The notes beneath the pieces were generated by a model. That model saw nothing but the letters and a program-made list of their open reading frames with translations. It did no database searches and was not told where the DNA came from. 30,204 nucleotides of DNA from an uncultured Methanosarcinales archaeon (lineage in GTDB: Archaea > Nanobdellota > Nanobdellia > Woesearchaeales > JAGVZT01): assembly GCA_964419615.1 (NCBI GenBank), contig CAYQPU010000020.1:1-30204 (forward strand), in the 5' to 3' direction. The position numbers and the translations under genes are program-made. Below are positions 3,906-19,939 of the stretch, one piece after another (the first letter of the stretch is position 1; every line of letters begins with the position of its first letter).

Positions 3906-4008
3906 GCCTCCGTAGCATAGTAGCTATTGCGGCAGAAGATTCAGAATATCTTGAATCGTGCCGAACCTTGTAAGCTGCAGGTCGAGGGTGCAACTCCCTC
4001 CGGAGGCT
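3906..4008 (+). tRNA. tRNA-Thr(UGU) with a 30-nt intron at position 30/31
   Basis: Exons 3906-3935 and 3966-4008 give a 73-nt cloverleaf: acceptor GCCTCCG/CGGAGGC, anticodon stem GCAGC/GCTGC, loop CT-TGT-AA, T stem GAGGG/CCCTC, U73. No encoded CCA. Confidence 0.93.
3936..3965 (+). other. tRNA intron, non-canonical position 30/31
   Basis: BHB-type junction: central helix CGGC/GCCG, bulges AG|A and AA|C, inner helix GATTC/GAATC. Confidence 0.9.
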
Positions 4009-10929: not shown

Positions 10930-10969
10930 ATGGAGAAAACAATAAACATTAAATGCAAGGTTAAAAGTA

Positions 10970-10982
10970 CTCCGGAGGCTTT
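10970..10982 (+). repeat. attR
   Basis: CTCCGGAGGCTTT, identical to the tRNA-Thr 3' end. Confidence 0.85.
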
Positions 10983-11148
10983 ATTCTAAAATAGAAAACC
11001 ATCCATATTTGCACAGCTATTTGATTGATATATAACATTTTTTAACAAAATTATTATATCTCTTTACAAAACATATTAGCAAGCCGCGCACTGATGTGTT
11101 GGGGAAGAAGCTCAATTCGTTGATTAAAACAATATCTGGTGGTATAAA

Positions 11149-11460
11149 ATGAAACAACAAAAAATGTTCTTAACATCAATAACAACAACAAAAATTCTGG
11201 ATTTGGTAACACAATCATTTAAACTATTACCTGGAAAAACCAAAGTGGCATTTATCCCAACAGCAGCAAAACCATATGAAAATAAAGAGTTTGTTGAAGA
11301 AGATAAAGAGAATTGGATTAAAGCAGGATATCAGTTTGTTGAAGTTTATCTTGAAAATAAAAATGAGGAGCAGCTTTATGAAGAGTTAAAAAATTATGAT
11401 ATTATTTACTGTTCTGGTGGAAACACATTCTATCTTCTACAAGAGGTACTAAGTACCTAG
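11149..11460 (+). pseudogene. Truncated peptidase E (family S51)
   Basis: KVAFIPTAA and DIIYCSGGNTFYLLQE are present, but the ORF stops before the catalytic G-x-S-A-G and His. Confidence 0.75.
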
Positions 11461-11577
11461 ATTTTTCTGAAAATTTTCCGAAATTCAGTTCCTCTATGAA
11501 TTACTTCCCTTAGTTTGGGGCTGTCATTTTGAATCCAACAGACTCCGATGTGAATAAACAGACAATAGTTTCTCCAT

Positions 11578-12330
11578 TTAACTTGGACAATATTTTTTTG
11601 ATTTCTTACTAAAAATATTATTTACTTGATTGTATGATTCAACCGAACCTATTTCATATTGATTTTGGATTTCAAATACAAAAATATCTTGTTTTTTGTG
11701 GAGCCATTCTACAAAACTTCCTGGTGCATCAGGATTATTGCCTTGATCAAGGTATTCTTTTATTAGTTTTAATGATGATTTTGGGTAAATGTAAAATGGA
11801 GGACAAGCCAAAGTCGATTTTGGTTCTTTTGGTTTTTCCTCAAAATCAATTATTTTATTTTTATCATTCATTAACACACAACCTTTTTTTTTAGCAATTA
11901 ATTTTTTATCTTCAATATCATATGCTGCCATAATCGGTGCTTGTTTTTCTTCAAAGAATTTTATAAATTTCATAAGATTAAATGATACCAGGTTATCTCC
12001 TGCCAGCACGATAATGTCATCATCTATGTTTGCAGATTCAATTGCAAATCTAAGATCACCAATAGCACCAAGTCTTTTTTCTTCTGAATTTGTTTTGTCA
12101 TCAATTATGTTTACACACTGGTTACAAGATCCTGCCCAAATTTTAAAATGAGGGTAAAATTTTGAGTTTGTTATTATGTTGATTTTATCAACTTTTCCTG
12201 TTGCTTCTAGTGCTTCTATTAGGTGAGTTGAGATTTCTTTCCTAGCTACTGTTAAAAGAGGTTTTGGAAAGTTGACTGTTATTGGATATAGTCTTGTTGC
12301 GTATCCTGCACAAAGAATTATTGCTTGCAT
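11578..12330 (-). CDS. Sugar-phosphate nucleotidyltransferase (NTP_transferase family)
   Basis: AIILCAGYATRLYPIT...PKPLL, LAGDN, FEEKPKEPKS. Confidence 0.92.
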   Translation of the reverse strand: MQAIILCAGYATRLYPITVNFPKPLLTVARKEISTHLIEALEATGKVDKINIITNSKFYPHFKIWAGSCNQCVNIIDDKTNSEEKRLGAIGDLRFAIESANIDDDIIVLAGDNLVSFNLMKFIKFFEEKQAPIMAAYDIEDKKLIAKKKGCVLMNDKNKIIDFEEKPKEPKSTLACPPFYIYPKSSLKLIKEYLDQGNNPDAPGSFVEWLHKKQDIFVFEIQNQYEIGSVESYNQVNNIFSKKSKKYCPS

Positions 12331-19416: not shown

Positions 19417-19491
19417 TTTGTATATGCTAATACAAAAGATATTAAAAGAGTTTTTGTTTTCTGACTTATGCGAGCCTGTAGCCTAGTCCGG

Positions 19492-19660
19492 CGAACTTTT
19501 AGGAAAACACAAGGGAACCAAAGATTCCCTGTGCCAGGAAAACTACTTTTTCCTTGGGTTCGATCAAAACACAAGGGGCTTACAGCCCCTTCCCGTGGTC
19601 AATATGAAAACTATTTAACCACGACACTTGATGGATTTACAATATTAATTGTTCGGATAT
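19492..19660 (+). other. tRNA intron 1 (169 nt, position 19/20, D loop)
   Basis: BHB: central helix GTCC/GGAT, bulges GG|C and AT|A, inner helix GAAC/GTTC. Confidence 0.85.
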
Positions 19661-19848
19661 ATAGGGCAGCAGCCTCCTACGCTGATGAAGAATCTCGGAG
19701 TAGTACCCTTGTGGTATGAAGAGAGTTAGCTGAAGCGCAAGAAAGCTGCGGGTCGGGGGTTCAAATCGACCTTTTAAAAAAAGGTCGAACAAAACAAATG
19801 GGACTTGCAGTCCCATGACGTGACCATCACAAATACAAGATAGTCACG
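19560..19848 (+). repeat. Duplicated 64-nt structured module in introns 1 and 3 (19560-19623 and 19785-19848)
   Basis: 43 of 64 identical without gaps; five compensatory base-pair changes. Confidence 0.85.
19680..19743 (+). ncRNA. tRNA intron 2 (64 nt, position 37/38); candidate box C/D guide sRNA
   Basis: Terminal stem CGC/GCG, box C TGATGA 19683-19688, C'-like GGTATGA 19713-19719, box D CTGA 19730-19733. The splice motif is relaxed (CTCC against CAAG gives 2 of 4 pairs) and box D' is unclear. Confidence 0.6.
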
Positions 19849-19905
19849 GTACAAAATTTGGTCTGGTACTAGTTTTGTTCGAATTAAGTAAAAGTTCGTT
19901 GAAAG
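19766..19905 (+). other. tRNA intron 3 (140 nt, position 59/60, T loop)
   Basis: Central helix TTCA/TGAA, bulges AA|T and AG|T, inner helix CGACCTTTTA/TAAAAGTTCG (9 of 10 pairs). Confidence 0.85.
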
Positions 19906-19939
19906 TCCTCCCAGGCTCGTTTATTTAATTGGGGATTTT

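What the first reader, a model, noticed from the sequence alone, without database searches (positions are those of the whole stretch)
19680..19743. Anticodon intron looks like a box C/D sRNA, possibly guiding 23S rRNA Cm1920
Seen: box C (TGATGA), box D (CTGA), a terminal stem and a C'-like GGTATGA. The 10-nt D guide AGAGAGTTAG is complementary to CTAACTCTCT. Established: intron-encoded C/D guides are known for euryarchaeal tRNA-Trp and act on tRNA, and methylation falls at the base paired to the fifth nt upstream of box D. Inference from recalled helix 69 sequences: if the host 23S reads ...TAACTCTAACTCTCTTAAGG, the D+5 base is the equivalent of E. coli C1920. That would be an rRNA guide hosted in a tRNA-Arg intron. 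The host rRNA is not in the window, and box D' is not clear.
Basis: partly seen in the sequence, partly recalled or inferred. Interest (0 to 1): 0.7.

Follow-up and report, generated by a model that had tools for sequence, protein, structure and literature searches.

The report
rRNA methylation guide inside tRNA-Arg intron
The 64-base intron in the anticodon loop of this small archaeon's arginine tRNA gene is a conserved box C/D guide RNA aimed at a key bridge helix of the large ribosomal RNA, not at its host tRNA, much like the intron-hosted snoRNAs of eukaryotes.

Summary
The finding holds, with corrections.

**Gene and intron.** Window 19472-19919 is a tRNA-Arg(CCU) gene split by three introns. 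The 37/38 intron (19680-19743) belongs to a box C/D sRNA family.

**Anatomy.**
- With box D (19730-33) and a covarying stem (19680-83 / 19734-37) it has the sequence pattern of a standard k-turn.
- The "C'-like GGTATGA" is not a box. It is one arm of a covarying hairpin that occupies the usual C'/D' position, with 12-nt spacers on both sides.

**Target.** The exact complement CTAACTCTCT is not in the rRNA. Guide positions 2-11 pair perfectly with 23S UAACUCUCUU (helix 69 3' strand). D+5 falls on the E. coli C1920 equivalent.

**Family.** The same guide recurs in about 45 of some 400 genomes sampled from the order, probably Woesearchaeota. It occurs inside tRNA-Arg(CCU) introns, as stand-alone genes, and in fully canonical double-guide sRNAs. 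That argues for a trans-acting rRNA guide.

**Host.** The genome encodes fibrillarin, Nop5, L7Ae and a splicing endonuclease.

No methylation or expression data exist. The scan earlier noted a tRNA-Arg(CCU) intron C/D RNA in another DPANN genome. I rate this a new variant of a known kind.

The parts
19434..19449 (+). promoter-like AAAAGATATTAAAAGA, about 29 nt upstream of the tRNA 5' end
   Evidence: Read. AAAGATATTAAAA recurs upstream of the orthologous tRNA-Arg genes in G002, G003, G004 and G007. Promoter function is inferred.
19472..19919 (+). tRNA-Arg(CCU) gene: four exons (19472-91, 19661-79, 19744-67, 19908-19) and three introns
   Evidence: The joined exons give a canonical 75-nt cloverleaf that ARAGORN calls tRNA-Arg(cct). 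ARAGORN and Rfam miss the unspliced gene.
19680..19743 (+). 64-nt anticodon-loop (37/38) intron = box C/D sRNA
19680..19683 (+). 5' strand of the terminal (C) stem, CGCU; it doubles as the outer helix of the splice motif
   Evidence: It pairs with 19734-37. The helix is 100% paired in 24 sequences, and all 3 modelled pairs show changes on both sides.
19685..19691 (+). box C, AUGAAGA (RUGANGA); G19684-A19685-U19686 form the 3-nt k-turn bulge
   Evidence: Per-column conservation; alignments A1-A3.
19692..19703 (+). 12-nt D'-side spacer AUCUCGGAGUAG; candidate second antisense element to 23S GUUACUCCGGGG (E. coli about 2437-2447)
   Evidence: Best rRNA duplex: 8 Watson-Crick plus 4 G:U pairs (12 contiguous), counting U19704 of the hairpin stem; 11 pairs within the spacer itself. 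Alone it is not significant (39/300 shuffles score as well).
19703..19717 (+). hairpin GUACC-CUUGU-GGUAU occupying the usual C'/D' K-loop position
   Evidence: Covariation (for example pair 44:117 reads GC 10, AU 8, CG 3, UA 2). Core lengths are the same (55-63 nt) in hairpin and canonical relatives.
19718..19729 (+). 12-nt D guide GAAGAGAGUUAG; bases 19719-28 pair with 23S UAACUCUCUU; G19725 (D+5) faces the C1920 equivalent
19730..19733 (+). box D, CUGA
19734..19737 (+). 3' strand of the terminal stem, AGCG
19738..19743 (+). intron 3' tail CAAGAA; G19741 and A19740 can pair with C32 and U33, leaving AA|A as the 3' splice bulge
   Evidence: Read from the sequence and the fold. This is a relaxed bulge-helix-bulge, and the reading is inferred.

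Best explanation
The anticodon intron of tRNA-Arg(CCU) is a box C/D sRNA made by tRNA splicing.

1. The gene is transcribed from its own promoter.
2. The splicing endonuclease cuts at a relaxed bulge-helix-bulge, and the 64-nt intron is released. It may then be circularised.
3. Its ends form a 4-bp stem. Box C (AUGAAGA) and box D (CUGA) form a k-turn that binds L7Ae and then Nop5-fibrillarin.
4. The 12-nt D guide pairs over 10 bp with the 3' strand and loop of 23S helix 69 (UAACUCUCUU). Fibrillarin 2'-O-methylates the C paired to the fifth guide base upstream of box D, the equivalent of E. coli C1920.
5. The internal C'/D' K-loop is replaced by a plain hairpin. The second 12-nt spacer therefore more likely acts as an accessory or chaperone pairing, possibly with 23S around 2437-2447, than as a second methylation guide.

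Shown: sequence anatomy, conservation, covariation, complementarity, and presence of the protein genes. Inferred: expression, splicing, RNP assembly and the methylation itself.
For: - The exons join into a canonical tRNA-Arg(CCU).
- Box C and box D are near-invariant, and the terminal stem and hairpin covary: 94.7% of cells are paired against 72% in shuffles, and 12 of 12 pairs show double changes.
- The 3-nt bulge and tandem G:A geometry fit a standard k-turn (read from alignments A1-A3).
- A 10-bp perfect match to 23S helix 69 is reached by 29/5000 shuffled guides.
- The target sequence is identical in 9 of 9 genomes of the order where the 23S region is assembled, the host included.
- Guide positions 2-9 are near-invariant, while position 1, which is unpaired, varies G/A/U.
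- The same D guide occurs in stand-alone genes (G097, G292, G363, G317, G124, G284). It also occurs in canonical C-12-CUGA-3/4 nt-UGAUGA-12-D sRNAs (G134, G185, G034).
- The D' guide of G134 pairs 12/12 with the 5' strand and loop of helix 69, directly upstream of the D target.
- The D guide of G034 pairs 11/11 with its own 23S.
- The host has fibrillarin, Nop5, L7Ae and an EndA domain.
- Helix 69 is a known hotspot for archaeal C/D guides (PMC4644070, PMC6009581).
Against: - There are no RNA-seq or methylation data for this uncultured organism.
- There are no C'/D' boxes, so a symmetric archaeal sRNP cannot be assumed.
- The central helix of the splice motif has only two Watson-Crick pairs (C32:G, U33:A), and the 5' bulge is off by one base in G000.
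- The guide is missing or altered in close kin. Same-genus G001 has a 44-nt intron without boxes and no other copy. G003 has mismatches at D+4 and D+5. G007 has a different guide. The modification is therefore dispensable.
- A 10-bp match alone has roughly a 1-2% chance level.
- Alignment A2 was fitted to the model, which inflates the pair counts.
Confidence: 0.75

Rival explanations
1. It is a genuine C/D-type RNP, but it acts mainly as an rRNA folding chaperone. It would hold the helix 69 3' strand, and perhaps the 2437-2447 region, open during assembly, with little or no methylation. The reason is that the lost K-loop prevents normal two-site assembly.
For: - The C'/D' boxes are replaced by a plain hairpin.
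- The D'-side spacer has a recurrent, G:U-rich complement near the peptidyl-transferase loop. It is the best site in the organism's own 23S for G000, G002, G003, G004 and G097.
- A chaperone role for double guides has been proposed (PMC6009581).
Against: - The terminal C/D motif and the 12-nt D spacer with its unpaired position 1 are exactly what a methylating half-site needs.
- Canonical relatives keep the same guide.
- The D' complement is not significant on its own.
Confidence: 0.12
2. The guide acts on the host pre-tRNA-Arg or another tRNA, in cis or in trans, as the tRNA-Trp intron does. The match to 23S would then be coincidental.
For: - This is the only experimentally described role of an archaeal intron-borne C/D RNA (PMC4090602, PMC7994747).
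- The association with tRNA-Arg(CCU) persists even when the sRNA lies outside the intron (G073, G240, G330).
Against: - The best pairing of either spacer with mature tRNA-Arg is 5 bp, and with 12 other tRNA-model matches in the genome (10 above threshold) it is at most 9 bp including wobbles.
- Stand-alone copies far from any tRNA-Arg keep the same D guide.
- Most host tRNAs are undetected, so the tRNA search is incomplete.
Confidence: 0.05
3. It is a decaying relic. The boxes are conserved only because the stem and flanks serve splicing, and the RNA has no function after excision.
For: - The terminal stem doubles as the outer helix of the splice motif.
- The element has been lost or degraded in G001, G003 and G007.
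Against: - Splicing does not require RUGANGA, CUGA, a 12-nt invariant guide or a covarying apical hairpin.
- All of these are kept across many families (34 genomes in 25 families in alignment A3) and also in copies outside any intron.
Confidence: 0.05

Closest known systems
Box C/D sRNA in the intron of euryarchaeal pre-tRNA-Trp (Haloferax volcanii; Pyrococcus sR50)
   Same: Both are box C/D guide RNAs of about 60-65 nt nested in the 37/38 intron of an archaeal tRNA, and both are released or used through the tRNA splicing pathway (PMC4090602, PMC7994747).
   Different: - The host is tRNA-Arg(CCU). This genome's tRNA-Trp has no intron.
- The guide is complementary to 23S rRNA helix 69, not to the host tRNA.
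- The tRNA-Trp intron has C'/D' boxes and two tRNA-directed guides. Here the C'/D' motif is a plain hairpin.
Canonical archaeal double-guide C/D sRNAs that target 23S helices 68-71 (Dennis et al. 2015, PMC4644070; Lui et al. 2018, PMC6009581)
   Same: Both have box C, box D, a terminal k-turn, 12-nt spacers and the N+5 rule, and helix 69 is a known hotspot. Members of the same family in G134, G185 and G034 are fully canonical.
   Different: - The G000 copy sits inside a tRNA intron and has no promoter of its own.
- The K-loop is replaced by a Watson-Crick hairpin.
- The lineage is a DPANN-type archaeon with a small genome, not a hyperthermophile rich in sRNAs.
Intron-hosted snoRNAs of eukaryotes, and plant dicistronic tRNA-snoRNA genes
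   Same: An rRNA methylation guide is expressed by processing of a host transcript rather than from its own promoter. A degenerate C'/D' motif is also common in eukaryotes.
   Different: The host is a tRNA intron cut by the protein-only tRNA splicing endonuclease, not a spliceosomal intron. There is no evidence of homology in the hosting arrangement.

Membership tests
box C/D sRNA | Box C (RUGAUGA) near the 5' end | tested here: met
   AUGAAGA at 19685-91. Across 24 model hits: A23, U24, G24, A24, N, G23, A24.
box C/D sRNA | Box D (CUGA) near the 3' end | tested here: met
   CUGA at 19730-33. Counts: C22, U18/C5, G23, A24 of 24.
box C/D sRNA | Terminal stem plus 3-nt bulge plus tandem G:A pairs (k-turn) | tested here: met
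   Sequence level only. The stem 19680-83 / 19734-37 covaries and is 100% paired. The bulge is G84 A85 U86; G87:A33 and A88:G32 are the tandem pairs. The three-dimensional fold was not tested.
box C/D sRNA | Internal D' and C' boxes forming a K-loop | tested here: not met
   A covarying Watson-Crick hairpin (19703-17) sits in that position. Relatives G134, G185 and G034 have CUGA-3/4 nt-UGAUGA there. These boxes are known to be degenerate in some accepted sRNAs (PMC6009581).
box C/D sRNA | Spacers of about 12 nt between the boxes | tested here: met
   19692-19703 and 19718-29 are 12 nt each. Core length is 55-63 nt in 36 members.
box C/D sRNA | Antisense match of 9-10 bp or more to rRNA or tRNA, with the target at N+5 from box D | tested here: met
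   10 Watson-Crick pairs with 23S UAACUCUCUU. G19725 faces the C1920 equivalent.
box C/D sRNA | Host encodes L7Ae, Nop5 and fibrillarin | tested here: met
   all above the Pfam cut-offs. The fibrillarin and Nop5 genes are adjacent.
box C/D sRNA | RNP assembly and guided 2'-O-methylation | not testable with these tools
   Needs biochemistry or RiboMeth-seq.
archaeal BHB tRNA intron | Removing the intron restores a canonical tRNA | tested here: met
   a 75-nt tRNA-Arg(cct) cloverleaf.
archaeal BHB tRNA intron | Two 3-nt bulges separated by a 4-bp helix at the splice sites | tested here: inconclusive
   The 3' bulge AA|A and the outer helix are present. The central helix has only C32:G and U33:A, and the 5' bulge is 2-3 nt (sequence reading). 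G004 has the canonical register.
archaeal BHB tRNA intron | Splicing endonuclease present in the host | tested here: met
   PF01974 hit of 101 bits at C3:32082-32342. The subunit type was not determined.
tRNA-Trp intron C/D guide (sR50 type) | Guides complementary to the host tRNA (C34, U39) | tested here: not met
   At most 5 bp with mature tRNA-Arg.

The most novel reading that the evidence does not exclude
In this DPANN order a conserved helix 69 guide has become an asymmetric C/D RNA with a single k-turn: a hairpin replaces the K-loop, as in many eukaryotic snoRNAs. It has also moved between three positions: a free gene, the 5' leader of tRNA-Arg(CCU), and the anticodon intron of that same tRNA. 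This would be a traceable case of a tRNA intron gained by, or serving as host for, a trans-acting rRNA guide, possibly through circular RNA intermediates. It would be an archaeal precedent for intron-hosted snoRNAs.
Probability: 0.25. Interest if true: 0.8.

Novelty: new variant of a known kind. Interest (0 to 1): 0.62.

Why it matters
Reviews describe the tRNA-Trp intron as the unique case of a functional RNA nested in an archaeal tRNA intron, and that RNA acts on its own tRNA (PMC4090602, PMC7994747).

Here a different tRNA hosts a guide whose conserved target is the ribosome's helix 69, the B2a bridge at the decoding centre. The arrangement is shared by many families of a large uncultured order.

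- It gives a selective reason for keeping a tRNA intron.
- It ties the supply of an rRNA-modification guide to tRNA transcription and splicing.
- It offers natural K-loop-to-hairpin variants for testing what the second L7Ae site contributes.
- It provides a comparative series (free gene, tRNA leader, tRNA intron) for studying how guide RNAs become intron-hosted.

Tried and rejected
CTAACTCTCT has five non-self genomic hits, none in an rRNA. That is about the chance level (controls gave 4). It was replaced by the one-base-shifted match.
AGAATCTCGG / AGAATCTCGGAG gave nothing useful. The correct frame is 19692-19703.
- **Rfam.** No family reaches its threshold. The best is sR23 at E = 0.74 and 14 bits against a gathering score of 45.
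- **Alternative C' and D' boxes.** I tried to read ATGAAGA (19716-22) as C' and CGGA (19696-99) as D'. I rejected this because it leaves 4-7-nt spacers and conflicts with the hairpin covariation. It also conflicts with the 12-nt D spacer of the canonical relatives.
- **Internal motif.** Readings as a k-turn or as a loop-E/bulged-G motif (AGUA/GAA) were not conserved across the family (G014, G018, G123).
- **RNAalifold pairing of the two spacers.** No covariation supports it.
- **Cis targeting of tRNA-Arg.** Rejected.
- **Another copy in same-genus G001.** The only hit lies in a coding sequence.
- **Naming the organism.** A window protein found nothing. Fibrillarin gave a Woesearchaeota MAG at 56% identity, so the taxonomy is inferred.
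- **Spread beyond the order.** The phylum-level sample returned hits only in genomes labelled 'same order', so this is undetermined.
- **Pattern search noise.** The search also returns many chance hits in coding sequences. Only hits with stem, boxes and hairpin were counted.

Full report
**Context.** The window is contig C20 of a 1.48-Mb, 33% GC, 99%-complete archaeal genome. Its fibrillarin is closest (56% identity) to a 'Candidatus Woesearchaeota' MAG, so the taxonomy is inferred. The order it belongs to holds more than 130 families in the genome collection. The 16S and 23S genes lie on contig C1.

**The gene.** ARAGORN and Rfam see no tRNA at this place. Reading the 523-nt intergenic region shows four exons: 19472-91, 19661-79, 19744-67 and 19908-19. 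Joined, they give a canonical 75-nt tRNA-Arg(CCU). The finding's coordinates, 19680-19743, are exactly the 64-nt intron between A37 and A38. A conserved AAAGATATTAAAA lies about 29 nt upstream of the gene, here and in orthologues. The intron has no evident promoter of its own.

**Conservation.**
- BLAST in 40 relatives found orthologous tRNA-Arg(CCU) genes whose intron is 74-87% identical in eight other genera.
- A covariance model built from ten of them (A1, R1) hit 20 of 151 sampled genomes of the order.
- A pattern search and a core model (R2) raised this to about 45 clear members.
- One row of A1 and R1 (G006) is an unpublished genome. G188, G249 and G340 appeared only in a hit list. No conclusion depends on any of them.

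**Anatomy.** Per-column counts show that the invariant box C is RUGANGA at 19685-91 (AUGAAGA), not the TGATGA at 19683-88.
- T19683 pairs with A19734. This pair is U:A in 11 sequences, C:G in 11, G:C in one and U:G in one.
- The terminal stem is therefore CGCU/AGCG. It is followed by the 3-nt bulge G-A-U and the tandem G87:A33 and A88:G32 pairs. That is the standard k-turn layout.
- Box D is CUGA at 19730-33.
- Between the boxes lie a 12-nt spacer (19692-19703), a 5-bp hairpin (19703-07 / 19713-17) and a second 12-nt spacer (19718-29).
- All five hairpin pairs show compensatory changes.
- Core lengths are 55-63 nt in all 36 aligned members.
- Three members (G134, G185, G034) carry CUGA-3/4 nt-UGAUGA where the others have the hairpin. 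The hairpin therefore stands in the place of the C'/D' K-loop.
- Within one family (f89) both forms occur with the same terminal stem.

**Target.**
- CTAACTCTCT is not in the rRNA contig.
- The 23S reads GGGAGUAACUAUAACUCUCUUAAGGU. Guide bases 19719-28 (AAGAGAGUUA) pair perfectly with UAACUCUCUU, and G19729, next to box D, is unpaired.
- The fifth base upstream of box D, G19725, faces the C that follows UAA.
- In an E. coli 23S copy, GUAACUAUAAC ends at annotated position 1917 of a 2900-nt gene. In standard numbering, where the three U's are the known pseudouridines 1911, 1915 and 1917, that C is C1920. The standard numbering rests on my own knowledge.
- A contiguous match of 10 bp or more to the rRNAs is reached by 29/5000 shuffled guides and by 106/5000 random genomic 12-mers.
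- The target string is identical in all nine genomes of the order where it is assembled, the host included.
- Guide position 1 varies (G 15, U 6, A 3), while positions 2-9 are near-invariant.

**Independence from the host tRNA.** The same sRNA occurs in several settings:
- as a free gene with a 4-9-bp terminal stem (G097, G292, G363, G317, G124/G342, G284, G070);
- 8-11 nt upstream of tRNA-Arg(CCU) in family f67 (G073, G240, G330);
- as a canonical double guide.

In G134 the D' guide pairs 12/12 (two G:U) with GCGGGAGUAACU, the 5' strand and loop of helix 69 directly upstream of the D target (the G000 23S served as proxy). In G034 the D guide pairs 11/11 with its own 23S, and the D' guide pairs 10/10 about 570 nt downstream. 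Neither G000 spacer pairs with more than 5 bp of mature tRNA-Arg.

**Second spacer.** AUCUCGGAGUAG finds its best rRNA duplex at 23S GUUACUCCGGGG, next to GGGGAUAACAG (E. coli about 2437-2447). The duplex has 8 Watson-Crick and 4 G:U pairs when U19704 of the hairpin stem is counted, and 11 pairs within the spacer itself.
- The same site is the best hit in the organism's own 23S for G002, G003, G004 and G097, and members differ there only by C/U changes opposite G's.
- Alone it is not significant (39/300 shuffles), and no D' box is present. I treat it as a possible accessory pairing.
- Other members carry different D'-side spacers, for example CAUUUCGCUAG, which is complementary to UAGCGAAAU of helix 71.

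**Machinery.** Fibrillarin and Nop5 (adjacent genes), L7Ae and an EndA catalytic domain are all encoded.

**Splice motif.** The anticodon stem, an AA|A 3' bulge and the outer helix (which is the sRNA terminal stem) are present. The central helix has only C32:G and U33:A. G004 has the canonical register. This is a relaxed motif, in line with the non-canonical D-loop and T-loop introns of the same gene.

**Limits.**
- Same-genus G001 has a 44-nt intron that keeps the ends but has lost the boxes and guides, and it has no other copy.
- G003 has mismatches at D+4 and D+5. G007 and a few others carry other guides.
- No expression or modification data exist.

**Literature.** Reviews call the tRNA-Trp intron the unique intron-borne functional RNA in archaea, acting on its own tRNA (PMC4090602, PMC7994747). 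Helix 69 is a known C/D hotspot (PMC4644070, PMC6009581). My searches found no description of a tRNA-Arg intron guide for rRNA. Earlier notes of this scan report a similar tRNA-Arg(CCU) intron guide in another DPANN genome. I did not test that note.

**Verdict.** This is a real box C/D sRNA hosted in a tRNA-Arg(CCU) intron. It most likely guides Cm at the C1920 equivalent of 23S. It is a new variant of a known kind.

Noticed in passing
window 19492-19660 and 19768-19907; G000 contigs C8, C26, C3, C21, C5, C32, C16, C10, C35, C7: Many tRNA genes of this genome are interrupted in the T loop (after GGTTCAAATC) or the D loop by inserts of 100-170 nt. The inserts share a module of three hairpins (ACCTTTT..AAAAGGT, GGGACTTGCAGTCCC, GTGGCC..GGCCAC) joined by AACAAAAC. 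ARAGORN and Rfam detect only about 10 tRNAs in a 99%-complete genome.
   Followed up: partly
G000 C1:about 10964-11686 (23S rRNA; not in the window): An insertion of about 720 nt sits in the 23S right after UAAGGU (E. coli about 1931), 13 nt 3' of the predicted Cm1920 site. The rRNA resumes with AGCGAAAUACC. G014 and G018 also have an insertion there; G002, G003 and G004 do not.
   Followed up: partly
G000 C3:about 43107-43177 (-): A second C/D-like sRNA. It has a 7-bp terminal stem TGCGTGC/GCACGCA, box C AUGAGGA and a 12-nt spacer AGTGAACACCCT with 10 Watson-Crick pairs to 23S (LSU 3327).
   Followed up: no
L047 (G073), L083 (G240), L084 (G330): In family f67 the same helix 69 guide RNA lies 8-11 nt upstream of a tRNA-Arg(CCU) gene rather than inside its intron. 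This is a likely sRNA-tRNA dicistron.
   Followed up: partly
L017 (G001, same genus): The orthologous tRNA-Arg(CCU) also has large D-loop and T-loop introns. Its anticodon intron is 44 nt, keeps AGCT...AGCAAAGAA at the ends, and has lost box C, box D and both spacers.
   Followed up: yes
L081 (G185) and L080 (G247), family f89: Two members share the terminal stem CATC/GGTG. One has a canonical CUGA-4 nt-UGAUGA K-loop and the other a CUAC...GUAG hairpin, so the switch between K-loop and hairpin can happen within a family.
   Followed up: no
window 3906-4008 (+): Rfam finds a tRNA (42.6 bits) with a 39-nt insertion in the anticodon region. ARAGORN calls it only when introns are allowed.
   Followed up: no
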